The notes under the pieces are model-generated. The model saw only the letters and a program-made list of their open reading frames with translations, ran no database searches and had not been told where the DNA came from. From an uncultured Gammaproteobacteria bacterium (GTDB lineage Bacteria > Patescibacteriota > Patescibacteriia > UBA11705 > JABHMO01): DNA of 64,000 bases. The translations under genes and the position numbers were made by a program. The DNA is taken from NCBI GenBank assembly GCA_964486065.1, contig CAZAKN010000001.1, positions 80,657 to 144,656 on the forward strand, written 5' to 3'. Positions within the stretch are counted from its first letter, which is position 1. Each line of letters starts with the position of its first letter. Below are positions 45,568-54,509 of this stretch, piece after piece.

Positions 45568-46482
45568 TTACTTTGAATATGAAATCGTAAAATAGCTGGT
45601 AGTAAAATCAGGATCATTACCTGATATTATATATGAATTGGAATGATTAATAATATTAACCTCACGATTATCCAAGATTTCCATAGTTCTCATCAAAATC
45701 TTCAAACAAATTGGCGAATCCAAATAATCACTATTAAATTCATCAAAAAATTTATAATTCCAATCATTAATTGCTCGTTCCGTTTCAGCATCTTTACTTT
45801 CAGCTTCATCAAAAGATAAATAATGGGAAAAATCAATGGAAGCAATCAGCAAAGAATTCTCGTCGGATTCTTTAGCAATACTTTGTGATAAAGTTTCCAA
45901 ATCATTAAAACGAGAAGTGAATATCATAGGAACAATTTCAGCTTCCGGAAAATAATAATTAATATATGGAATCAATACTTTTAGAGAGTGTTCTCTGTAA
46001 TATTGATTATAATCGTAATCAATATAATTATTTTCTCTAATTTTCAATAATGTTTGTTTATCAATATCAATTTTCTCAGCATTGATCTCAAAACCGGCCG
46101 GATAACTTATAATCGGCTCCCCTTGATCTTCATGATTTGGTCCGATTAAAAAAATTTTTTTTACATCTCGACAAGAAACCTTACTCATGGCTTCGGCAAT
46201 CAAATCCCCCGCCAAATTATGATGCGGCACAACTAAACCTTGAGGATAGACCTTGCAATTATCTTTAATTAATGGATAGTCTTTAACCGCATTATAAAAA
46301 TACACATCATTCATTGCAATATGAATGAATTCAGAACTGTCTCTAACAATCCGTTTATTTATTGTTTTGTTTTGGATTTCAAAAATATTATTATTATCAA
46401 TTGGCAATAAAATAAAAATCATACCGGCAATCAATATGATTACCGATATGATTAATAATAATTTCTTCTTACTCAAGCGCAT
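45568..46482 (-). CDS. Membrane-anchored MEMO1-family (AmmeMemoRadiSam system protein B-like) protein
   Basis: 304 aa; N-terminal TM helix; Memo-like motifs (VVPHHNLAGD..., REHSLKVLIPYI); start codon overlaps stop of giant upstream gene (TAATG). Confidence 0.6.
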   Translation of the reverse strand: MRLSKKKLLLIISVIILIAGMIFILLPIDNNNIFEIQNKTINKRIVRDSSEFIHIAMNDVYFYNAVKDYPLIKDNCKVYPQGLVVPHHNLAGDLIAEAMSKVSCRDVKKIFLIGPNHEDQGEPIISYPAGFEINAEKIDIDKQTLLKIRENNYIDYDYNQYYREHSLKVLIPYINYYFPEAEIVPMIFTSRFNDLETLSQSIAKESDENSLLIASIDFSHYLSFDEAESKDAETERAINDWNYKFFDEFNSDYLDSPICLKILMRTMEILDNREVNIINHSNSYIISGNDPDFTTSYFTISYSK

Positions 46483-49400
46483 TAGTAATTGATTTTAACT
46501 TTTCCGGCATCAGAGTAATTCATAATATCAGTAGCACTCAATGATTGAATAACCGCCGGTTCGGACACATATTCACCGGGATTTAACACTTTGGCATAAT
46601 AATTTAATGTTGGATAATCTTGCTTATCTTGTCCTTGATAAAGGATAAATTTAATTTTTTGCCCATCAATTTCAATCGGTCTTTTGGAATAATCAATTCG
46701 ATACTTTGATAAATCATTATATTTATATAACTCTGTCATGGATTTCATTCCACTCGGTAAAAAATCAACAATTTCATATGCTCCGGCAATCGCATTTTTT
46801 TTAATATTTACATTCAATCTAACTTCAATTAAATCATCTTTATCAAATTCAGTAATTTTTTGTCCCTGCAAGTTATAATAACTTTTTTGTACTGAGACAT
46901 AATCACTTGTATCCACTGTTTCAATATCAAATTTCTTATCATATTGACTTACAATACCTATTTCTCCGGAAATATTAGAAAACTGCACAGAAGCCAATTG
47001 CTCGGGATTCAACCTAAATACTTCCATTTTTCCTTTTGCCAATTCCTTATGATAAGTTTCTCCATTTATAGTAATATCAAATGATACTTCCGAAGGAATT
47101 AAATTTGGTAAAGTATTTTGCAAATAATTTAGTTTTTCCAAATTTAATAATATATCCTTGGTTTGATACCTTACCACATAATCCCAAAAAACCGGGGCTT
47201 CGGGTTTATTTAATCCTCCTCCCAACAAGGCAGCTAAAGCGGTTAATTGCATGTAATCATCTTCATCTTCACCAAAAGCAATTCTTTTGTATGGTGATAA
47301 ATCTTCAACATAATCTCTCACCACGGAATCATAAAGTTCTTTAGCCAATTCATAACTACCGATTTCATAAGCGGCTAATCCCAAATACAATTTATCTTTA
47401 ACCGTTAATTGTTCAACCTCGGAAAAATACTGAATCTGCAACAACACAGGCTCCTCCAAGGAAGCTAAACCATACAAAGCCATTACAATTTCATCTTGAT
47501 TTGAATCGCTATTCTGCAGAAATTCATAAAAATATTTCTTCAAAAAAACCTTATCAAAATAATCAGTATTCAACGCTGCAACTCTGGCTGATAACTCAAG
47601 TTCACTGTCCGAATATGGCAATAATGAAATTCCCCCATTTTTCAATTGGTAATTAATCGCTCTTATTTGATTATTACTATTATTTTCAATTTCATAATAT
47701 CTACTTAACAAATCAGAAGCTAAAACATTGGATAATTTTTGATCAACTCTTTGACCACCATACCGGCTCAATTTTCGCAAATCATAGTAATATTGTCCCA
47801 TGGACTTATCAGTAATAATCAATTTCGTTTCCCCATCTCTACTACCTTGAATAATTACATCATCATTCAATTCATAAAAATCTTGTTGTTCTTTGGTTAA
47901 TCTTGATTCTATGACATTAACTTTTTTCAATATAGCATCATTACCTTTTAACGATTCAAGTGAAACTTTCACATCACTTGCTCCCAATATCAATTTATCA
48001 ATTTGAGCATAAGTATCCTTGTAAGCATTTGCTTGTTTTACAATCTTTTCCGGTTTAAAATCAGGCGTTTCAACAGTAAAAGAAACTTTATCCTGAGCAG
48101 ATAATTCCTTACCATAGGCTCGCAATCTAAGTACGGGTTTGTCATCAAGCAAATATTCATCACTAATATCTGTCTTTACAAAAGCAGGTAAAGAAACATC
48201 TATATTATGCCAACTAATTCCCGCTTCAACATTTTCCGTAAAAGCCTTGGCGATAATTCTCCAAGAAGTTAAATTGTCAGGTAATTCCAATTCCACTTCC
48301 GCTTTTCCGTTTGCGTCGGTCGCAACATTTTTTGAAGTAAAAGCAGTGTCTTTAAAAACAGATCTAACAGTACCACCTTTATCATTGTGAACATAAATTC
48401 CATCAGCAATATAAGTATGGTATTTATCTACGGTAATGTTATAAACCGGTACAATCTCCTCAACTTTATCAATTTTTTCAATCACAACTAACTTATTATC
48501 CTTATCACGAAGCAAATCTCCAATCTTAGCGTTGCCAATCATGTCCCAGCTACCATTCAAATACACCATATGTTCCGGAGTAATTTTTAATTTATCATTA
48601 ATAATATAATATCCGGATACAATATGTTTGAAAGTATTTGATACTTCACCTGAAACCAATTCTCCTGAATGCATATCTTTAAAAGTCATAATTTTATCCC
48701 CTTCAACAATATCCTCAATATTCTTCAAACTCCCATCTGCCATTAAAATCTTTGTTCCATGTAAAAAGCAACCACCACCTTCAACATTATCTTCTGTATC
48801 AGGATAATCATGTGTATGCTTATTCAAAATACTACCCGTTCTCAAATTTGCATACAAGGTTTGCAAAATACCCTTTTCAACTCGGCTAATCTTAAAAATT
48901 GCTTCGTCTACCAAATTAACACTCAAAGAGGCTTTTACCGGTTTACCTTGATTATTTTTTACGGTTACAAAAACTTTAGCTTTTTCTCCCGGCTTGTATT
49001 CATTCTTATCCGTTGATATATCAATTCTCAACTCTTTGTCTTCATAATCATAAAGAATATTCGTACCATCTAACCTCTCAAGCCAATTATTTGATTTTGA
49101 CATGTGATATGTCTCCCCGTCAAAATATACTCCCGCCAAATAAACATTGGGGACATGTTCTTCTCCAAAAATAAATCTATATTCAGAATTATCAGTAACA
49201 TCATATCCCATTAAGCCATTTTGCAATCGCATATATAGATAAGCATCTCTTTCATGTATCGGTGTTCTTTCATTTCCTTTAGAAAATTCCGCGACTACCT
49301 CTTCGCCTAAAGAAAAATATTCATCATCATTCATCAATTTTATTTGATATCTATTTTCCAAAAAGAATCTAGAAAAAGATTTAAATGATAGATAACCGCT

Positions 49401-52097
49401 AGTAGCGTCATGTCTTCCATTATCATCTTCAACCGTAACATTAACAACATATCTACCTTCCGGATCCACATCCAAATCATAAATAAATTCTCCATTTTTA
49501 TTGGTAACACCTTCAAAAGTTCCTATTTCTATATCATTATATACATACTTGTATTTATCCCGAGTAACTTTATTAATATAATCATAATATTGTCCGATAA
49601 CTATCTTTTGAGATTCTTTTTTGATAATTCTTCCTTTGACTTTTTTGTTTTCCGCAGGATCATAATTTCTATTTTCAGAATCAGAATAAAGATATGGGAA
49701 TTTTTCTTCACCACTATTCAACTTATCAATATCCAAATCAGCCGCCAAAACTTTTATCTTAGCCTTATTGGGATTTTCTTTTTCTCGATCAAAGAAAACC
49801 CTTGAAGTCAGCTTAGCACCCAAAACTCTAACGGATACATAATCATTAATATCTGAAAATTCTTGCTGTGCCGGATCAATATATATACCATCATATCTTG
49901 GATAATGACAATTACTTGAAGAAATATCACAATCTTTGAATGTAGTATTTTTAATATAAGTCACTTGTCCTTGAGAATCTGTTTTAACAATCTCACCTTC
50001 AACTTCCAAATCCAAATTAGCCAATGGGGTTCCCTCAAAAAATGAAGCTTTAATATCAACTTTTATCGGATCTCCAGCATAAACATAATCTGCTTGCGGA
50101 CTGGATTCAAATGTATAGGCTGGCTTAACATAATCTTCAACTGTTATATACTTTCCCGCATAATAAACATCATCCTTAATCAATTGCAAAGCATAATGAC
50201 CGGGCAAAATCCCCTCAAAGCTTAATTTTCCTTCAAAAACACCATCTTCTCTTACATTCACTTCCTCCACCGCTGCACAAATTTCATTATTATATATATC
50301 GTAATAATTACCTGATTTACATAATTTTATTTGCATTGTATCCATCTTTTCCATTTCATCACTTCTCGGTAAAATAGTTCCCCAAACATTAATTTCATCC
50401 GTTGTTTTATATATTTGTCTATCACTGGCAATATATTTCCAATATTTACTACCAATATCAGCAACAGGATTTAAATTAAATCCTGAATAATAATTTCCTT
50501 CTTTTTCCGCTGAATCACGAAATCTTTCAGTAAAATTAAGAATACTGATATTTTCACCTTTTGTAACCTTGAAATAATAATCACCAAGTTCAGGGTCAAT
50601 CATTTCCCTTGTATTAAATAATGCAACTCCATCCTGATTCGTTTTTTCTTTCATTCCATTACCAATCACTTCTATTGAAGCATCAGCAACAGGTTGATCT
50701 GAATCAATATCATTAACCCAAAATAATGTTTCGTCCTTCATGACTTGCGCGAAAACCGCATAATCGGTAATTTGAATCAAAATTTGATCATTATCTTCTT
50801 TTCCTGAAGAAGCTTTTGCTAAATAATAACCTTTTGGTAACTCTTCCGGTAAAACAACTAGATAACTATAATACCAATCATCATTTTTCACTACCGGTAA
50901 ATCATACTTTCCAACTTCAGACAAATTATAATTACTTAGATCCAAATCCAATTGTCTTTTATATGACCAATAGGGATACTTTAGTTTTTGATTTACAGCG
51001 GAAATAAAATCATCCGGAGAGTTAAAAGCTCTTAATTCAAGTGAAATAGTAGCATTCTTTTCAACACCTCTTACTCCTAAAAATGGATTAACACTTGTTG
51101 AGAAATCAACAAAATCATCATTAAAATTAAAAGAATGATAATCACGCTGAATTACTTCTTCTTTTGGAAGAGTTTCAAAACTGAATTCAAAATTATTTCT
51201 TAATTTTTCTTCACTTCCCTCTAATTCTAATTTATCTTTATCAATCTTTACTGTATAAATCGTACCGTAATCTAAATCCTTTTTAGGGACAAAAACCAAA
51301 TCATTTTTATGAACTTCAAAACTTCCTTCAATCTTGGGATCAATTGAGAAGGCATTGACATGATTTTCAAATCCCAAATGACTAAATTTAATTTCAATAC
51401 CTGTATTTACGGGAACTTGATTACTTTTATCGCGAGGTAATGAACTCAAAATCTTAAACTCGTTTCTTACTTGAAAAGCCCAAGAATAATCACTGGCAAC
51501 CTCTTTCCCATTTTGAGCGATATATGAAGCTGCAATTTGTAAGTTATAAACTTTGTTTTCATTCAATTCTTCTTTTGGAACTACTTTAAACTCATGATCG
51601 TTGATTTTTTCAATTTGAAAATCAATTGCCGGAGATAAAGTGATACTTTTTCTCAAAGTTTCCAAATCAATTTTTTGTTGACTTTTAACCACAAATTGAG
51701 ATTTGGAATAAATCCCCATACTGTCACTTTCTGTCGGTTCTACTTGGAAATTGTCATGCGCATAAGCAGAATTTATAATTAATCGTGAAACTTTCCCCAA
51801 AGGAGAAACCGGCTCGGAATCATGGAATAAAAATTGCATTGAAGCAAAAACAACGGCAATAATCAATACCAATGATACTGCCGGCACGAAATAACGAAAA
51901 TTAAAGATTTTCGCCAAATTTAATTTTTTCATATTACTTTTTTTGCGCCGTTGTTCCAATATCTTCGCTTTAAGTTCTTGGCGAAAATCATCAGAAGCAG
52001 GCTGATTAGTGTAGTTAGCATACATAATATTTCTTTCTGCTTCTGATAACGCTTTTTTATTGAATTTGTTACACTTTTTATTGTTTTTTTCTTTCAT
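46482..52097 (-). CDS. Giant (1871 aa) single-pass membrane protein with alpha-2-macroglobulin-like (MG/A2M/TED) ectodomain and embedded Hint domain; N-terminal cytoplasmic segment is a candidate anti-sigma domain
   Basis: TM helix at ~aa 68-88; A2M-family block after the Hint domain (TVRSVFKDTAF...LPDNLTSWRIIAKA...SLPAFV vs A2M VRKYFPETWIW...PDTITEW...PFFV); TED-like region with degenerate thioester site (SRYGGQR in place of PYGCGEQ); 18 nt downstream of ECF sigma gene. Confidence 0.6.
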   Translation of the reverse strand: MKEKNNKKCNKFNKKALSEAERNIMYANYTNQPASDDFRQELKAKILEQRRKKSNMKKLNLAKIFNFRYFVPAVSLVLIIAVVFASMQFLFHDSEPVSPLGKVSRLIINSAYAHDNFQVEPTESDSMGIYSKSQFVVKSQQKIDLETLRKSITLSPAIDFQIEKINDHEFKVVPKEELNENKVYNLQIAASYIAQNGKEVASDYSWAFQVRNEFKILSSLPRDKSNQVPVNTGIEIKFSHLGFENHVNAFSIDPKIEGSFEVHKNDLVFVPKKDLDYGTIYTVKIDKDKLELEGSEEKLRNNFEFSFETLPKEEVIQRDYHSFNFNDDFVDFSTSVNPFLGVRGVEKNATISLELRAFNSPDDFISAVNQKLKYPYWSYKRQLDLDLSNYNLSEVGKYDLPVVKNDDWYYSYLVVLPEELPKGYYLAKASSGKEDNDQILIQITDYAVFAQVMKDETLFWVNDIDSDQPVADASIEVIGNGMKEKTNQDGVALFNTREMIDPELGDYYFKVTKGENISILNFTERFRDSAEKEGNYYSGFNLNPVADIGSKYWKYIASDRQIYKTTDEINVWGTILPRSDEMEKMDTMQIKLCKSGNYYDIYNNEICAAVEEVNVREDGVFEGKLSFEGILPGHYALQLIKDDVYYAGKYITVEDYVKPAYTFESSPQADYVYAGDPIKVDIKASFFEGTPLANLDLEVEGEIVKTDSQGQVTYIKNTTFKDCDISSSNCHYPRYDGIYIDPAQQEFSDINDYVSVRVLGAKLTSRVFFDREKENPNKAKIKVLAADLDIDKLNSGEEKFPYLYSDSENRNYDPAENKKVKGRIIKKESQKIVIGQYYDYINKVTRDKYKYVYNDIEIGTFEGVTNKNGEFIYDLDVDPEGRYVVNVTVEDDNGRHDATSGYLSFKSFSRFFLENRYQIKLMNDDEYFSLGEEVVAEFSKGNERTPIHERDAYLYMRLQNGLMGYDVTDNSEYRFIFGEEHVPNVYLAGVYFDGETYHMSKSNNWLERLDGTNILYDYEDKELRIDISTDKNEYKPGEKAKVFVTVKNNQGKPVKASLSVNLVDEAIFKISRVEKGILQTLYANLRTGSILNKHTHDYPDTEDNVEGGGCFLHGTKILMADGSLKNIEDIVEGDKIMTFKDMHSGELVSGEVSNTFKHIVSGYYIINDKLKITPEHMVYLNGSWDMIGNAKIGDLLRDKDNKLVVIEKIDKVEEIVPVYNITVDKYHTYIADGIYVHNDKGGTVRSVFKDTAFTSKNVATDANGKAEVELELPDNLTSWRIIAKAFTENVEAGISWHNIDVSLPAFVKTDISDEYLLDDKPVLRLRAYGKELSAQDKVSFTVETPDFKPEKIVKQANAYKDTYAQIDKLILGASDVKVSLESLKGNDAILKKVNVIESRLTKEQQDFYELNDDVIIQGSRDGETKLIITDKSMGQYYYDLRKLSRYGGQRVDQKLSNVLASDLLSRYYEIENNSNNQIRAINYQLKNGGISLLPYSDSELELSARVAALNTDYFDKVFLKKYFYEFLQNSDSNQDEIVMALYGLASLEEPVLLQIQYFSEVEQLTVKDKLYLGLAAYEIGSYELAKELYDSVVRDYVEDLSPYKRIAFGEDEDDYMQLTALAALLGGGLNKPEAPVFWDYVVRYQTKDILLNLEKLNYLQNTLPNLIPSEVSFDITINGETYHKELAKGKMEVFRLNPEQLASVQFSNISGEIGIVSQYDKKFDIETVDTSDYVSVQKSYYNLQGQKITEFDKDDLIEVRLNVNIKKNAIAGAYEIVDFLPSGMKSMTELYKYNDLSKYRIDYSKRPIEIDGQKIKFILYQGQDKQDYPTLNYYAKVLNPGEYVSEPAVIQSLSATDIMNYSDAGKVKINY
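48384..48770 (-). other. Hint (intein-like / BIL-type) domain, residues ~1110-1238 of the giant protein
   Basis: Begins GGG|CFLHGTKILMADGS (intein block A: Cys1, T-x-x-H region) and ends ...VYNITVDKYHTYIADGIYVHN| (block G, terminal His-Asn); +1 residue is Asp, not Cys/Ser/Thr; ~129 aa mini-intein size, no endonuclease. Confidence 0.7.
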
Positions 52098-52114
52098 ACA
52101 CTTAAATAATTATC

Positions 52115-52684
52115 TTATTTTGCGTATTTTTCGTAAATTTTTGCAAATTTATTTATAGCTCTAAGGCTTAAAACTCTGGCATTATTTGTTGAAATCTTCA
52201 TAATTTTAGCTATTTCATCGTAATCTTTCTGCGCAAAATATCTCAAATTTATTACTATTTGATATTTAACGGACAATTTACTTATTAAGTAACTTATGAA
52301 CTCCTTATTATAATTGTTATCCACTATCTCTTTAATATCATATTTTTGATCAGCTACCTGGATTTTTGAATCTTCCTTATCCAAGCTGATATTTTTTGCT
52401 TTTGATTCTTTTCTGTAATAATCCGTTAAATGATTGGTCGCGATACGATAAAGCCAAGCTGAAAACGAGTATCCCTTGAATTTATATTTATGTAAATTGG
52501 TGAATACTTTTAAAAATATTTCTGAAACCAAATCTTCACATACCTCCTTATTTCCTGTTCTTTTATAAATATATCCATAAATTTTGGGGAAATAAAAATC
52601 ATACACTACCCCGAAAGCATGGTCATCTGTTTTAGCTTGTTCAACTAATTCTGCTTCGTTTTCCAAAATACTCTTTTGATACAT
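52115..52684 (-). CDS. ECF-type RNA polymerase sigma-70 factor
   Basis: 189 aa; region 2 (FLKVFTNLHKY...YRIATNHLTDYYR) and region 4 HTH (DYDEIAKIMKISTNNARVLSLRAINKF). Confidence 0.8.
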   Translation of the reverse strand: MYQKSILENEAELVEQAKTDDHAFGVVYDFYFPKIYGYIYKRTGNKEVCEDLVSEIFLKVFTNLHKYKFKGYSFSAWLYRIATNHLTDYYRKESKAKNISLDKEDSKIQVADQKYDIKEIVDNNYNKEFISYLISKLSVKYQIVINLRYFAQKDYDEIAKIMKISTNNARVLSLRAINKFAKIYEKYAK

Positions 52685-52754
52685 ATAAATATGTGAATAT
52701 TATACCACAAAAAAAACAGCCGAGCTAAGCTCGGCTGTTTAAATATTGAAAGAT

Positions 52755-54509
52755 TTATTCCAAAATCGCTTTTATCCGACGAACCCCCGCGGAACTGGCT
52801 TTTTCTTTTTTGATCACAAAATGTCCCAACTCTCCCGTCCTTGAAACATGCGGCCCACCGCACAATTCCATGGATACATCACCGATTGAATAAACCTTAA
52901 CAATATCGCCATATTTATCTTCAAACAAACCCATTGCTCCTTTTTGTTTGGCTTCATCAAATGGAATTTCTTCACACTCAATTTTATAATCCGCTTGAAT
53001 CCATTTATTCACCAAATCTTCAACTTGTTTTTTTTGCTCCTCCGATAATTTCTCATCATGCGTAAAATCAAAACGCAATCTTTCCGCTGTAATATTACTG
53101 CCTTTTTGTTCCACATGCTCCCCCAAAACCAGACGCAAGGCGGCTTGCAACAAGTGCGTGGCTGTATGCAATTTAGCGGTTTCTTCTGAAATATCGGCCA
53201 AACCTCCCTTAAACTTTTGCTCCGCGCCTTGGCGAGACAATTCTTGATGTTTGACCATTTCTTTCTCAAATTCCTTTATATCAATTTCCAAATTATTTTC
53301 TTTAGCCAACTCTTCAGTCATTTCCAAAGGAAATCCATAAGTGGAAAACAAGATAAACGCTTCCTGTCCAGAAATCTTTTTATTAAAAGACATTTTTTCA
53401 AATTCCTTTAAACCCTTTTCCAAAGTTGATCTGAATTTTTCTTCTTCTTTTTGTAATTCATCACGCGCAAATGTCCGTTTCCTTTTCATCTCGGGATAAA
53501 TTTCTTGATAAATATCATAAACCGGATCCATCAATTGCACGGTGAAATTTTCTTCAAGACCGATTTCTTTGGCTGTCCTAACCGCCCGCCGAATCAATCT
53601 TCTAACAATATAGCCTTGATCCAAGTTTGAAGGTGCCACACCATTACGATCACTCATAATCATTATCGCCGCTTTAATATGATCCGCAATAACCCGAAAC
53701 GATTTTTTGTAACCCTCGTATTTTTTACCGGAAATATCCTGCAATTTTTCAATAATCGGCCAAAATAAATCCGTAAGATAATTATCTTTCAATCCGTTTA
53801 AAACAGCGGTGGTTCTTTCAAGTCCCATGCCGGTGTCCACATTTTTACGCTCCAAGGGAACATACTCACCATTTTCCGTTTTATTAAATTGCATGAAAAC
53901 ATTATTCCAAATTTCTACCCAATTACCATTTTCCGGATCAAATTTTTCCGGCACTTCTTCATTGTCCTTAATCCAATAAAAAACTTCAGTATCAGGACCT
54001 TGCGGTCCGGGATTCTTGCCACCGGCCGGCCACCAATTATCTTTCTTTCCCAAAAAAGCGATTCGTTTTTCCGAAACACCTTTTGCCAACCAATATTTCA
54101 AAGCTTCATCATCACGTGGAGCATCAGCATCACCGCCAAATACAGTAAACGCCAATCTGTCAGACGGAATTCCCAATGTTTGAGTTAATAACTCATAAGA
54201 CATATCAATTGATTCCTTTTTGAAATAATCACCCAATGACCAATTGCCCAACATTTCAAAAAATGTATGATGAGTGGCATCTCCGACCTCTTCAATATCA
54301 CCGGTTCTAATACATTTTTGCGCACTTACCAACCTCGTTCCTTGAGGATGTTTTTCTCCTAGCAAATATGGTACTAAAGGTTGCATGCCAGCAGTAGTGA
54401 ACAAAACACTGGGGTCATTTTCCGGAATTAAAGAAGCTGAAGCAATAATCACGTGATCTTTGTTTTTAAAAAATTCAAGATATTTTTGACGCAATCGGTT
54501 ACCTGTCAT
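52755..54509 (-). CDS. alaS: Alanine--tRNA ligase, short form (584 aa)
   Basis: Class II AlaRS catalytic core (FTTAGMQP, tRNA-binding region) plus compact editing-like region (HTATHLL...CGGPHV); lacks C-Ala domain. Confidence 0.8.
   Translation of the reverse strand: MTGNRLRQKYLEFFKNKDHVIIASASLIPENDPSVLFTTAGMQPLVPYLLGEKHPQGTRLVSAQKCIRTGDIEEVGDATHHTFFEMLGNWSLGDYFKKESIDMSYELLTQTLGIPSDRLAFTVFGGDADAPRDDEALKYWLAKGVSEKRIAFLGKKDNWWPAGGKNPGPQGPDTEVFYWIKDNEEVPEKFDPENGNWVEIWNNVFMQFNKTENGEYVPLERKNVDTGMGLERTTAVLNGLKDNYLTDLFWPIIEKLQDISGKKYEGYKKSFRVIADHIKAAIMIMSDRNGVAPSNLDQGYIVRRLIRRAVRTAKEIGLEENFTVQLMDPVYDIYQEIYPEMKRKRTFARDELQKEEEKFRSTLEKGLKEFEKMSFNKKISGQEAFILFSTYGFPLEMTEELAKENNLEIDIKEFEKEMVKHQELSRQGAEQKFKGGLADISEETAKLHTATHLLQAALRLVLGEHVEQKGSNITAERLRFDFTHDEKLSEEQKKQVEDLVNKWIQADYKIECEEIPFDEAKQKGAMGLFEDKYGDIVKVYSIGDVSMELCGGPHVSRTGELGHFVIKKEKASSAGVRRIKAILE

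What the first reader, a model, noticed from the sequence alone, without database searches (positions are those of the whole stretch)
48384..48770. Hint/mini-intein-like domain inserted exactly at the A2M bait-region position, with a degenerate canonical thioester motif
Residues ~1110-1238 start GGG|CFLHGTKILMADGS and end ...YVHN|DKGG, i.e. an intein/Hint block A with Cys1 and block G with terminal His-Asn. It is ~129 aa with no homing endonuclease. The +1 residue is Asp, so canonical splicing is unlikely; it looks like a BIL-type autoprocessing domain. Immediately C-terminal is the A2M hallmark block (VRSVF-DTAF...LPDNLTSWRII...PAFV). In A2M proteins this block directly follows the protease bait region. 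The downstream TED-like region reads SRYGGQR where A2Ms have PYGCGEQ, so the thioester Cys/Gln is absent. A Hint domain generates its own Cys1 thioester and can self-cleave at both junctions. Here it could act as an autocatalytic 'bait' or replace the lost thioester chemistry, which would be a new functional combination.
Basis: partly seen in the sequence, partly recalled or inferred. Interest (0 to 1): 0.85.

Follow-up and report, generated by a model that had tools for sequence, protein, structure and literature searches.

The report
Self-cutting domain inside a macroglobulin's bait loop
A giant membrane-anchored α2-macroglobulin-like surface protein of a Patescibacteria (CPR)-type bacterium carries a fully intact intein-like self-processing (Hint/BIL) domain in the loop that proteases normally cut to trigger such proteins; at least 80-100 related species keep this arrangement, which suggests a built-in, protease-independent trigger that I found described in no paper.

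Summary
The gene lies on the minus strand (46482-52097, 1871 aa). Residues 1110-1238 (window 48384-48770) form a 129-aa Hint domain of the bacterial intein-like (BIL-A / PT-HINT) type. It sits in the bait loop of a thioester-less bacterial α2-macroglobulin (A2M) homologue, in which the thioester Cys is replaced by Arg1450.

The insertion is not a one-off. 20 of 48 close homologues carry the same domain at the same loop, as do 80 GTDB species genomes from many named Patescibacteria lineages. Across 81 sequences these residues never vary: Cys1, Phe2, block-B Thr and His, the terminal His-Asn, and Lys at +2. Gly at -1 is present in 80/81. The +1 residue is a nucleophile in only 4/81. The domain is inherited vertically and is more conserved than its host protein (47% vs 33% identity).

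Best reading: a domesticated autoprocessing module that excises itself, and so cuts or re-links the bait without any protease.

12 related Hint-bearing A2Ms keep a canonical YPYGCxEQ thioester, and 28 thioester-less relatives have no Hint.

The closest solved relative is the Tetrahymena BUBL BIL2 domain, which forms Lys isopeptide bonds. Transfer of the Gly-Gly thioester to a lysine therefore stays open.

The gene sits in an ECF-σ / A2M / Memo operon and is probably also an anti-σ factor.

The parts
46482..52097 (-). A2M-like gene, 1871 aa. Domain order: N-terminal cytoplasmic segment, TM helix, Big_5/MG domains, bait-region domain, Hint, MG7-like A2M block, TED-like helical domain, bMG10.
   Evidence: ORF. 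Pfam. Family profile vs PDB: ECAM/YfhM E 1e-27. AF2 model of aa 700-1871, pLDDT 84. Foldseek top hits ECAM 5A42 (E 6e-40) and SaA2M 4U48.
48384..48770 (-). Hint / BIL-A (PT-HINT) autoprocessing domain, aa 1110-1238.
   Evidence: pLDDT 85-94 within the large model.
48768..48770 (-). Cys1110 (Hint Cys1), the nucleophile for the N-S acyl shift. Preceded by Gly1108-Gly1109.
   Evidence: Cys 81/81, Phe2 81/81, Gly-1 80/81, Gly-2 77/81.
48570..48581 (-). Block B T-P-E-H (Thr1173...His1176).
   Evidence: Thr 81/81 and His 81/81.
48384..48389 (-). Penultimate His1237 and terminal Asn1238 (block G), the Asn-cyclisation site.
   Evidence: His 81/81 and Asn 81/81. TIGR01443 intein_Cterm E 1.2e-8.
48369..48383 (-). 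C-side junction and linker D-K-G-G-T (aa 1239-1243). The +1 residue is Asp; Lys1240 at +2 is invariant.
   Evidence: +1 is D31/E25/Q15/A5/S3/G1/C1. +2 is Lys 81/81. pLDDT <50. Hint-less relatives have no Lys here.
48771..48827 (-). N-side bait linker aa 1091-1109 (…DTEDNVEGGG), predicted disordered. It carries the family motif GAExGG.
   Evidence: pLDDT <50. The motif is also conserved in Hint-less relatives. It aligns to the ECAM bait 'RFGGD'.
48891..49328 (-). A2M bait-region domain (A2M_BRD), aa 924-1069.
   Evidence: Pfam E 9.5e-7, above cutoff.
48171..48329 (-). A2M hallmark block (PF00207), aa 1257-1309 (…LPDNLTSWRII…).
   Evidence: Pfam E 1.7e-7, above cutoff.
47103..47801 (-). TED-like all-helical domain, aa ~1433-1665.
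   Evidence: Helices 734-966 of the AF2 model. Aligns to the TED of a thioester-bearing relative.
47739..47762 (-). Degenerate thioester site Y-G-G-Q-R-V-D-Q (aa 1446-1453). Arg1450 replaces the thioester Cys and Gln1453 is kept.
   Evidence: BLASTP alignment to 'FPYGCVEQ' of L060. Arg1450 is invariant in the 47-member subfamily. No CxEQ in P0001-P0048.
46542..46895 (-). C-terminal bMG10-like domain, aa 1735-1852.
   Evidence: Pfam weak hit. Strongest profile stretch to the ECAM C-terminus.
51897..52097 (-). N-terminal cytoplasmic segment, aa 1-67: candidate anti-σ domain.
   Evidence: Conserved in σ-linked homologues. A pre-TM segment >45 aa occurs in 32/34 loci with σ upstream and 3/35 without. 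No Pfam anti-σ hit.
51825..51893 (-). Single transmembrane helix, aa 69-91.
   Evidence: Sequence. Alignment.
52115..52684 (-). ECF-type σ70 factor, immediately upstream in the same operon.
   Evidence: Pfam Sigma70_r2 and r4_2. The same arrangement is seen in L001, L002, L003, L007, L008 and in 37 GTDB loci by tblastn (34 of the complete ORFs by the adjacency rule).
45568..46482 (-). Memo-like protein with an N-terminal membrane anchor. Its start overlaps the A2M stop.
   Evidence: Pfam Memo E 1.9e-22. Sequence. Found downstream in 9 of 10 inspected loci (the window plus nine homologue loci) and in 45 of 80 GTDB loci.

Best explanation
The segment is a domesticated A-type bacterial intein-like (BIL / PT-HINT) autoprocessing domain. 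It is embedded, between two disordered Gly-rich linkers, in the bait loop of a membrane-anchored, thioester-less bacterial α2-macroglobulin-like protein.

Proposed mechanism after Sec export and folding:
1. Cys1110, helped by block-B Thr1173/His1176, converts the Gly1109-Cys1110 peptide bond into a thioester.
2. Asn1238, helped by His1237, cyclises and breaks the Asn1238-Asp1239 bond.
3. There is no Cys/Ser/Thr at +1, so canonical trans-esterification cannot occur.
4. The domain therefore excises itself and the bait loop is severed without any external protease. The result is a two-chain molecule: a TM-anchored MG-domain N-fragment ending in …Gly-Gly, and a C-fragment starting (D)K-G-G… that carries the MG7, TED-like and MG10 domains.
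5. Alternatively, the Gly thioester is resolved by an amine rather than by water.

In A2M proteins, bait scission is the event that releases the conformational change. The Hint would therefore act as a built-in trigger or maturation step, possibly conditional on thiol, redox or metal.

Shown here: the fold, the position, the invariance of every residue needed for steps 1 and 2, the absence of a +1 nucleophile, vertical inheritance, and stronger constraint than on the host protein.
Inferred: that the reactions occur, their timing, and their consequence for the A2M body.

Separately, the protein is probably the anti-σ partner of the ECF σ encoded just upstream. The A2M ectodomain would then be the sensor.
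For: Hint identity:
- Pfam PT-HINT above cutoff, and intein_Cterm above cutoff.
- PDB sequence and profile hits to BIL domains.
- AF2 plus Foldseek: TM 0.78-0.85 to BIL structures, ranking above classical mini-inteins and Hedgehog.

Position:
- The Hint lies between A2M_BRD and A2M.
- The profile alignment to ECAM puts the insertion between 'RFGGD' and 'GDELKRGGKPPVN'. This is about ECAM residue 950. It lies between the segment R923-L942 that is disordered after elastase cleavage and the cleaved-bait residues R956/G958/N963 (PMC4498604).
- Both linkers are predicted disordered.
- Hint-less homologues show a clean indel at this point: GGAEGGG-GGDG.

Selection for activity:
- In 81 sequences from 80 species-level genomes plus the window, Cys1, Phe2, block-B Thr and His, penultimate His and terminal Asn are 81/81. 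Gly-1 is 80/81 and Lys+2 is 81/81. The +1 residue is D/E/Q/A/G in 77/81.
- No decayed copy was seen, although a dead insert in a disordered loop should be tolerated.
- Hint columns are more conserved than the rest of the protein (47% vs 33% mean identity). The Hint tree mirrors the host tree (Spearman 0.60 over 190 pairs).
- GC content is the same as the host gene.

Literature: BIL domains lack the +1 nucleophile and give predominantly N- and C-cleavage products (PMC7664689; PMC7765530).

Same architecture elsewhere: thioester-bearing Patescibacteria A2Ms have the order A2M_BRD, PT-HINT, A2M, TED_complement, bMG10.

Anti-σ context: the σ gene is immediately upstream in 6/6 inspected loci with a long N-terminal segment and in 0/4 with a short one. 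Among the complete GTDB ORFs the counts are 32/34 vs 3/35.
Against: - No biochemical evidence exists for any member.
- Invariance of both junctions fits self-excision with re-ligation (splicing by aminolysis or an isopeptide) equally well. That outcome would leave the bait intact.
- Classical inteins also keep their catalytic residues merely because the host protein needs them removed.
- If cleavage were constitutive, the thioester-bearing relatives would discharge their thioester at once. This argues for some conditionality that I cannot identify.
- The N-terminal segment matches no known anti-σ family.
- The AF2 model lies nearer to activated than to native ECAM (TM 0.43/0.41 vs 0.25). This is weak evidence and could be a modelling artefact.
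Confidence: 0.55

Rival explanations
1. Self-excision with re-ligation. After Asn cyclisation, either the new α-amine of residue +1 or the ε-amine of the invariant Lys+2 attacks the Gly thioester. The two A2M halves are rejoined by a peptide or isopeptide bond and the bait ends up intact (…GAEGGG-DKGG…), like the loop of Hint-less relatives. The Hint would then be a benign, vertically trapped intein-like element or a conditional maturation switch. The mature protein would be an ordinary protease-triggered, thioester-less A2M.
For: - Both junction chemistries are invariant.
- Gly at -1 gives the least hindered thioester.
- Lys+2 is invariant only in Hint-bearing proteins.
- The ligated product would mimic the Hint-less loop GGAEGGGGGDG.
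- BIL domains can ligate without nucleophilic side chains (Aranko et al. 2013, cited in PMC7664689).
- The closest solved relative, BUBL BIL2, makes a Lys-ε isopeptide (PMC8616854).
Against: - BIL domains are reported to give predominantly cleaved products.
- A purely selfish element in a disordered, insertion-tolerant loop should show decayed copies, and none was seen in 81 sequences.
- There is no homing endonuclease and no sign of horizontal spread.
Confidence: 0.25
2. Trans-conjugation. The Gly-Gly thioester at the end of the membrane-anchored N-fragment is captured by a lysine (or another amine) of a foreign protein or of the cell wall. This would tether the target covalently, giving an intein-derived analogue of the A2M/C3 thioester or of ubiquitin-type conjugation. 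It is the reader's 'replacement chemistry' idea in its viable form.
For: - The best sequence-profile and fold match is Tetrahymena BUBL BIL2. That domain conjugates a Gly-Gly C-terminus to lysines of several substrates without ATP.
- The N-flank (K/R/G)GG|CF aligns with the RGG|C flank of BUBL.
- The window protein has lost its own thioester.
Against: - 12 Hint-bearing relatives keep a canonical thioester, so the Hint is not a substitute.
- 28 thioester-less relatives manage without a Hint.
- No substrate-binding element is evident.
- The invariant Lys+2 points more simply to an intramolecular acceptor.
Confidence: 0.1
3. A classical splicing mini-intein, or a polymorphic-toxin pretoxin Hint as NCBI names a homologue.
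For: Intein N- and C-terminal models and PT-HINT match. NCBI calls P0026 a 'polymorphic toxin-type HINT domain-containing protein'.
Against: - A +1 nucleophile is present in only 4/81 sequences.
- The insertion is in a disordered loop of a non-essential surface protein, not in a conserved active site.
- No toxin domain follows. The 630 aa after the Hint are the A2M, TED-like and bMG10 domains.
- The downstream gene is Memo-like, not an immunity gene.
Confidence: 0.03
4. A catalytically silent structural insert, for example a folded plug or a decoy within the bait.
For: None specific. The flanking linkers could still serve as the bait.
Against: All catalytic residues are completely invariant over very divergent lineages.
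Confidence: 0.03

Closest known systems
A-type bacterial intein-like (BIL) domains / Pfam PT-HINT (e.g. Clostridium thermocellum BIL, PDB 2LWY)
   Same: Hint fold (TM 0.78/0.85, rmsd 1.8 Å, 30% identity). Cys1, block-B TxxH and C-terminal His-Asn are present. There is no +1 nucleophile and no endonuclease. It lies in a variable region of a secreted or surface bacterial protein.
   Different: The host protein and position are new: the bait loop of an α2-macroglobulin, not the junction before a toxin or adhesin module. It is strictly conserved and vertically inherited across a superphylum, rather than sporadic.
BIL2 of the Tetrahymena thermophila BUBL1 polyubiquitin-like locus (PDB 6Y75/6TMM)
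   Same: Best profile hit (E 3.5e-19) and best fold hit (TM 0.81). It shares the (R/K)GG|C N-junction. A lysine acceptor is implied there and an invariant Lys is present here.
   Different: It is eukaryotic and flanked by ubiquitin-like domains. Here the flanks are A2M MG domains. Isopeptide formation is demonstrated there and only conjectured here.
Bacterial α2-macroglobulins: ECAM/YfhM and Salmonella SaA2M (type I), P. aeruginosa MagD (type II, thioester-less)
   Same: Multi-MG architecture, bait-region domain, TED-like and C-terminal MG domains. Supported by a profile hit (E 1e-27) and a fold hit (E 6e-40). Like MagD-type proteins it lacks the thioester (PMC5764988 abstract).
   Different: It is anchored by an N-terminal TM helix with a cytoplasmic extension instead of a lipobox. 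It has extra Big_5 domains and a Hint domain in the bait. Its partners are an ECF σ and a Memo-like protein, rather than PbpC or the mag operon (the pbpC and mag linkage is from my own knowledge of Budd et al. 2004 and Robert-Genthon et al. 2013).
Complement C3/C4/C5 (my own knowledge of the family)
   Same: The loop equivalent to the A2M bait carries an inserted domain (anaphylatoxin) and an obligatory processing site that makes a two-chain mature protein.
   Different: Processing there is done by furin and convertases, not by a self-cleaving domain. The inserted domain is unrelated.
Autoproteolytic anti-σ factors (RsgI SEAL domains; FecR)
   Same: A single-pass anti-σ candidate whose extracytoplasmic part contains an autoproteolytic module (PMC10328401, PMC10556640, PMC12036975).
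   Different: The cleavage module is a Hint domain ~1000 residues from the membrane, not a juxtamembrane SEA-like or FecR domain. The anti-σ role here is only inferred from gene order and the N-terminal extension.

Membership tests
Hint superfamily, A-type BIL / PT-HINT | Hint fold with blocks A, B, F and G | tested here: met
   PT-HINT E 1.1e-11, above cutoff. AF2 pLDDT 88. Foldseek TM 0.78-0.85 to BIL structures.
Hint superfamily, A-type BIL / PT-HINT | N-terminal Cys/Ser nucleophile and block-B TxxH | tested here: met
   Cys1110 and T1173-P-E-H1176. All are 81/81 across homologues.
Hint superfamily, A-type BIL / PT-HINT | C-terminal His-Asn, with no nucleophile at +1 | tested here: met
   HN 81/81. 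+1 is D/E/Q/A/G in 77/81 and Asp in the window.
Hint superfamily, A-type BIL / PT-HINT | Autocatalytic N- and/or C-terminal cleavage | not testable with these tools
   Needs expression and mass spectrometry.
Classical (class 1) splicing intein | Cys/Ser/Thr at +1 for trans-esterification | tested here: not met
   Asp1239. Only 4/81 homologues have Ser or Cys.
Classical (class 1) splicing intein | Insertion in a highly conserved functional site of an essential host protein; often a homing endonuclease | tested here: not met
   It lies in a disordered Gly-rich loop of a surface protein. It is 129 aa with no endonuclease.
Polymorphic toxin (pretoxin Hint) | Hint immediately precedes a C-terminal toxin domain, with an immunity gene downstream | tested here: not met
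   The downstream 630 aa are A2M, TED-like and bMG10 domains. The next gene is Memo-like.
Hedgehog/Hog Hint | N-terminal cleavage only, a sterol-recognition region, and no terminal Asn | tested here: not met
   The terminal HN is invariant. Pfam Hint (PF01079) is below cutoff. The fold match to 1AT0 is weaker (TM 0.66).
α2-macroglobulin / TEP superfamily | MG-domain array with a bait-region domain, the A2M block, a TED and a C-terminal MG domain | tested here: met
   Pfam A2M_BRD and A2M above cutoff. Profile vs ECAM E 1e-27. Foldseek ECAM/SaA2M E ~1e-40. Helical TED-like domain.
α2-macroglobulin / TEP superfamily | Exposed, disordered bait region between the BRD and MG7 | tested here: met
   aa 1091-1109 and 1239-1243 have pLDDT <50. 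They align to the ECAM bait.
α2-macroglobulin / TEP superfamily (type I, thioester-containing) | CxEQ thioester in the TED | tested here: not met
   No CxEQ. The Cys position is Arg1450. Related Hint-bearing proteins L030, L044, L060 and others do have it.
α2-macroglobulin / TEP superfamily | Protease trapping after bait cleavage | not testable with these tools
   Needs biochemistry.
Type II bacterial A2M (MagD-like) | Thioester-less A2M encoded in the mag-type six-gene operon | tested here: not met
   It is thioester-less, but its neighbours are an ECF σ and Memo, then MutS/MutL and AlaRS.
ECF σ / single-pass anti-σ pair | Anti-σ gene directly downstream of σ, with an N-terminal cytoplasmic σ-binding segment followed by one TM helix | tested here: inconclusive
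   Gene order and the correlation of the extension with σ are strong (32/34 vs 3/35). No known anti-σ domain is detected and binding is untested.

The most novel reading that the evidence does not exclude
Patescibacteria A2M-family proteins may use an intein-derived module as a second, ubiquitin-like covalent chemistry. The Hint would convert the invariant Gly-Gly end of the membrane-anchored N-fragment into a thioester. That thioester would be handed to a lysine ε-amine: either the invariant Lys+2, giving an isopeptide-stapled bait, or a lysine on a foreign protease or host-cell surface protein. In the σ-linked versions, this event in the A2M ectodomain would be relayed through the membrane to release an ECF σ factor. 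That would make it a self-arming, covalent sensor/adhesin of episymbiotic bacteria.
Probability: 0.12. Interest if true: 0.9.

Novelty: new variant of a known kind. Interest (0 to 1): 0.72.

Why it matters
A2M/complement-type proteins are defined by a bait that an outside protease must cut. A conserved self-cleaving domain at exactly that spot would mean the molecule can arm or mature itself. This changes what such proteins can sense: thiols, redox state, metals, or time after export, rather than proteases.

It also gives the BIL/PT-HINT class a clear, conserved, non-toxin role. It offers a tractable system in which the outcome (cleavage, splicing or lysine conjugation) can be read by mass spectrometry.

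The protein is one of the largest genes in the very small genomes of Patescibacteria (CPR) and is kept in many of their lineages, often together with a dedicated σ factor. It is therefore likely to matter for their surface biology. Current annotation mislabels it ('polymorphic toxin-type HINT domain-containing protein', 'Ig-like domain-containing protein').

Tried and rejected
1. Plus-strand reading of the given coordinates gives stop-ridden nonsense. The gene is on the minus strand.
2. Classical intein: rejected on the +1 residue and the insertion site.
3. Polymorphic toxin: rejected because no toxin or immunity genes are present.
4. Recent horizontal insertion: rejected. GC is 0.310 in the Hint vs 0.317 in the gene. 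The Hint tree is congruent with the host tree.
5. 'Hint compensates for thioester loss': rejected as a general rule.
6. Known anti-σ domains in the N-terminal 120 aa of 8 homologues: nothing credible found.
7. The search for related loci with the full-length alignment A1 failed because no stretch was conserved enough. It was repeated with the Hint-plus-flanks alignment A3.
8. The word-indexed homologue search with the Hint profile returned only short proteins (≤275 aa), many on short contigs, and was of little use.
9. Literature searches for A2M plus Hint or intein, and for macroglobulin plus Patescibacteria, found no description of this architecture. The library lacks most subscription journals, so absence is not proof.
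10. Dassa et al. 2004 (PMID 15150275) could not be read.
Full report
**Observation**

The coordinates 48384-48770 read as nonsense on the plus strand. On the minus strand they translate to CFLHGTKILMADGS…KITPEHMVYL…HTYIADGIYVHN. This is residues 1110-1238 of an uninterrupted 1871-aa ORF at 46482-52097. It is preceded by …VEGGG and followed by DKGGTVRSVFKDTAF…LPDNLTSWRII.

- Pfam places PT-HINT on the segment (E 1.1e-11, 45.6 bits against a cutoff of 27.7). Weaker hits go to other Hint and intein models.
- NCBIfam intein_Cterm is above its cutoff.
- phmmer against PDB sequences aligns the whole segment to the C. thermocellum bacterial intein-like domain 2LWY.
- The block-B TxxH motif is present (T1173-P-E-H1176).
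- At 129 aa there is no room for an endonuclease.

The strand was not stated.

**The host protein**

Pfam finds this order: Big_5 (213-309), bMG3, A2M_BRD (924-1069), the Hint, A2M/PF00207 (1257-1309), bMG10 (1735-1852).

- A profile of 47 homologues hits E. coli ECAM/YfhM (5A42, 4ZIQ, 4RTD) at E ~1e-27 and Salmonella SaA2M at 4e-22.
- An AF2 model of aa 700-1871 (pLDDT 84) has ECAM and SaA2M as its best Foldseek matches (E 6e-40 and 1e-39). Human A2ML1, CD109, C4/C5 and TEP1 follow.
- The model contains an all-helical TED-like domain (aa ~1433-1665).
- The protein has no CxEQ motif, and neither do P0002-P0048.
- BLASTP against a thioester-bearing relative aligns 'LSRYGGQRVDQKLS' with 'LTGFPYGCVEQTMS'. 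The thioester Cys is therefore Arg1450 (invariant in this subfamily) and the Gln is retained.

**Is it the bait region?**

The profile-to-ECAM alignment puts the insertion between ECAM '…LAALRFGGD' and 'GDELKRGGKPPVN'. The chain index plus 39 reproduces the published residue numbers R956, G958 and N963. The site is therefore about ECAM residue 950. It lies between the stretch R923-L942, which becomes disordered after elastase cleavage, and the 'cleaved bait' residues that dock on the C-terminal MG domain (PMC4498604).

In the AF2 model the Hint is confidently folded (block means 80-94). It is tethered by two segments with pLDDT <50: aa 1091-1109 and aa 1239-1243. The positional claim holds.

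**How general is it?**

- Among the 48 closest homologues, 20 carry the Hint at the same loop. The other 28 show a clean indel that leaves a Gly-rich loop, GGAE(G/K)GG-GGDG.
- In a neighbour-joining tree of the non-Hint columns, the Hint-bearing proteins form one large clade. Three Hint-less subclades are nested in it. This fits one gain followed by precise losses.
- Hint columns are more conserved than the rest of the protein (47% vs 33% mean pairwise identity).
- The Hint tree reproduces the host clades, and the two distance sets correlate (Spearman 0.60, 190 pairs).
- The Hint DNA has the same GC content as the gene.
- A scan of one genome per GTDB species found 100 loci encoding a relative, of which the best 80 were kept. 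All 80 encode the Hint. A2M sequence was detected upstream in 74 and downstream in 77.
- The record titles name Magasanik-, Peregrini-, Peri-, Collier-, Moran-, Nomura-, Gracili-, Doudna-, Uhr-, Levy-, Shapiro-, Specht- and Portnoy-bacteria, among others.
- The exhaustive search of 1.84 billion representatives gave 1006 proteins at E ≤1e-30. In the top 150 there are many 1.7-1.9-kaa proteins with a single full-length match at residue ~1000-1270.

**Junction statistics (81 sequences)**

| Position | Result |
|---|---|
| Cys1 | 81/81 |
| Phe2 | 81/81 |
| Block-B Thr | 81/81 |
| Block-B His | 81/81 |
| Penultimate His | 81/81 |
| Terminal Asn | 81/81 |
| Gly at -1 | 80/81 |
| Gly at -2 | 77/81 |
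| +1 residue | D31, E25, Q15, A5, S3, G1, C1 |
| Lys at +2 | 81/81 |

Hint-less relatives have no Lys at the +2 position.

Every residue needed for the N-S acyl shift and for Asn cyclisation is therefore under absolute constraint. The residue needed for canonical trans-esterification is absent in 95% of sequences. No decayed copy was seen, although a dead domain in a disordered loop should be harmless. I take this as evidence that the activity itself is selected.

**The thioester-replacement idea**

Twelve of the 80 Hint-bearing ORFs carry a canonical YPYGC(T/V/M)EQ motif 220-360 residues after the Hint: L030, L044, L045, L050, L060, L064, L067, L074, L080, L087, L088 and L089. Four of these ORFs (L044, L060, L080, L087) were scanned with Pfam and show the order A2M_BRD, PT-HINT, A2M, TED_complement, bMG10, with the same spacings as in the window protein.

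Together with the 28 relatives that lack both features, this shows that Hint gain and thioester loss are independent. The Hint is a feature of Patescibacteria A2M bait regions in general, not a substitute for the thioester.

**What kind of Hint is it?**

A separate AF2 model of aa 1100-1250 (pLDDT 88, pTM 0.82) ranks against the PDB as follows:

1. Tetrahymena BUBL1 BIL2 (6Y75/6TMM, TM 0.81).
2. C. thermocellum BIL (2LWY, TM 0.78/0.85, rmsd 1.8 Å).
3. Mini-inteins (TM 0.66-0.72).
4. Hedgehog (TM 0.66).

The family profile gives the same order by sequence: 6Y75 at E 3.5e-19 and 2LWY at 6.7e-18. It aligns the family's (K/G/R)GG|CF junction with the RGG|(C1A)F junction of BUBL.

From the literature:
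- BIL domains lack the +1 nucleophile and yield mainly N- and C-cleavage products. A single mutation turns them into efficient splicers (PMC7664689; PMC7765530).
- BUBL BIL2 performs an unusual splicing that forms an isopeptide bond between a Lys ε-amine and the Gly-Gly C-terminus. It can conjugate its N-flank to several substrates without ATP (PMC8616854 section 2.4).

**Mechanism**

The best-supported reading is self-excision. Cys1110 makes the Gly1109 thioester and Asn1238 cyclises. With no +1 nucleophile, the bait loop ends up cut (a two-chain A2M), or the thioester is resolved by an amine.

In A2Ms, bait scission is what releases the conformational change (PMC4498604; PMC9352918 abstract). 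The Hint would thus be an internal trigger or maturation step that needs no protease.

Two rivals cannot be excluded from sequence alone:
- Re-ligation through the +1 α-amine or the invariant Lys+2, which restores a continuous bait.
- Transfer to a foreign lysine.

The thioester-bearing relatives argue that firing should be conditional. I could not identify the condition.

The AF2 model resembles activated ECAM (TM 0.43 and 0.41) more than native ECAM (0.25). I treat this as a curiosity only.

**Context**

- The gene follows an ECF-type σ70 gene (52115-52684) by 17 bases.
- A Memo-like gene (45568-46482) follows, and its start overlaps the A2M stop.
- The Memo-like protein has an N-terminal membrane anchor.
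- A hairpin followed by a T-run lies upstream of σ.
- The σ gene is immediately upstream in all 6 inspected loci whose A2M has a long N-terminal segment (the window, P0010, P0011, P0016, P0029, P0042). It is absent from all 4 with a short N-terminus.
- Memo is downstream in 9 of the 10 inspected loci.
- Among 69 complete GTDB ORFs, a pre-TM segment longer than 45 aa occurs in 32/34 with σ upstream and 3/35 without.
- The segment matches no known anti-σ family.

I infer that the protein doubles as the anti-σ factor and that the A2M ectodomain is the sensor. Autoproteolytic anti-σ factors are known (RsgI, FecR). The Hint lies ~1000 residues from the membrane, however, so it cannot itself be the site-1 cut.

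**Novelty**

Both modules are known kinds. I found their combination, a BIL domain in an A2M bait, in no paper. Public annotation misnames the proteins. I rate it a new variant of a known kind, with a testable and potentially new trigger mechanism.

**Limits**

- Nothing here is biochemical.
- The trees are neighbour-joining on p-distances.
- Model coordinates could not be inspected.
- The literature library is incomplete.

Noticed in passing
window 45568-52684 (-); also L001, L002, L003, L007, L008: There is a conserved three-gene cassette: ECF σ, then a TM-anchored A2M-like protein, then a membrane-anchored Memo-like protein. The presence of σ tracks a ~65-aa cytoplasmic N-terminal extension of the A2M (32/34 vs 3/35). 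This suggests an A2M-type ectodomain used as the sensor of an anti-σ factor. I could not explain the role of the extracytoplasmic Memo-like partner.
   Followed up: partly
L030, L044, L045, L050, L060, L064, L067, L074, L080, L087, L088, L089: Other Patescibacteria A2M subfamilies with an intact YPYGCxEQ thioester (a TED_complement domain confirmed by Pfam in L044, L060, L080, L087) also carry the Hint at the same bait position. A self-cleaving bait next to a live thioester implies self-activated covalent attachment, or conditional firing.
   Followed up: partly
P0134, P0137, P0140, P0143; many multi-stretch hits: The nearest non-A2M relatives of this Hint occur as tandem arrays of 2-12 Hint domains. 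Very short linkers separate them, for example HN|KGGG|C, HN|KP|C and HN|KG|C. Two of the four (P0134, P0143) have a hydrophobic N-terminal motif (FTVFE / FTIIE) that looks to me like a type-IV-pilin signal; this was not tested. Gly before Cys1 and Lys right after Asn seem to be hallmarks of the whole Hint clade. I do not know what such arrays produce.
   Followed up: no
P0035, L048, L055, L056, L063: In one subclade the Hint is flanked by an exact 5-residue direct repeat: AEKGG|Hint|AEKGG. In the window the flanks are related but not identical (VEGGG| … |DKGG). This could be a footprint of the original insertion or a requirement of the reaction.
   Followed up: no
window aa 700-1871 model: The AF2 model superposes better on protease-activated ECAM (4ZIQ TM 0.43, 4RTD 0.41) than on native ECAM or SaA2M (0.25).
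   Followed up: no
L013, L014, L017, L020, L024 and others: Many of the GTDB records that hold this Patescibacteria-type gene are titled 'uncultured Gammaproteobacteria', 'Pseudomonadales', 'Bdellovibrionales' or 'Flavobacteriales'. Their sequences are closest to those from records named as Patescibacteria lineages, so the titles may be automatic mislabels. I did not check this.
   Followed up: no
window 52690-52745 (-): A GC-rich hairpin followed by a T-run (AAACAGCCGAGCTTAGCTCGGCTGTTTTTTTT) lies between the alanyl-tRNA synthetase gene and the σ gene. It looks like an intrinsic terminator that sets off the σ-A2M-Memo operon.
   Followed up: no
window 46001-54000: The σ-A2M-Memo region is more AT-rich (GC 0.31-0.34) than the window average of 0.376.
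   Followed up: no
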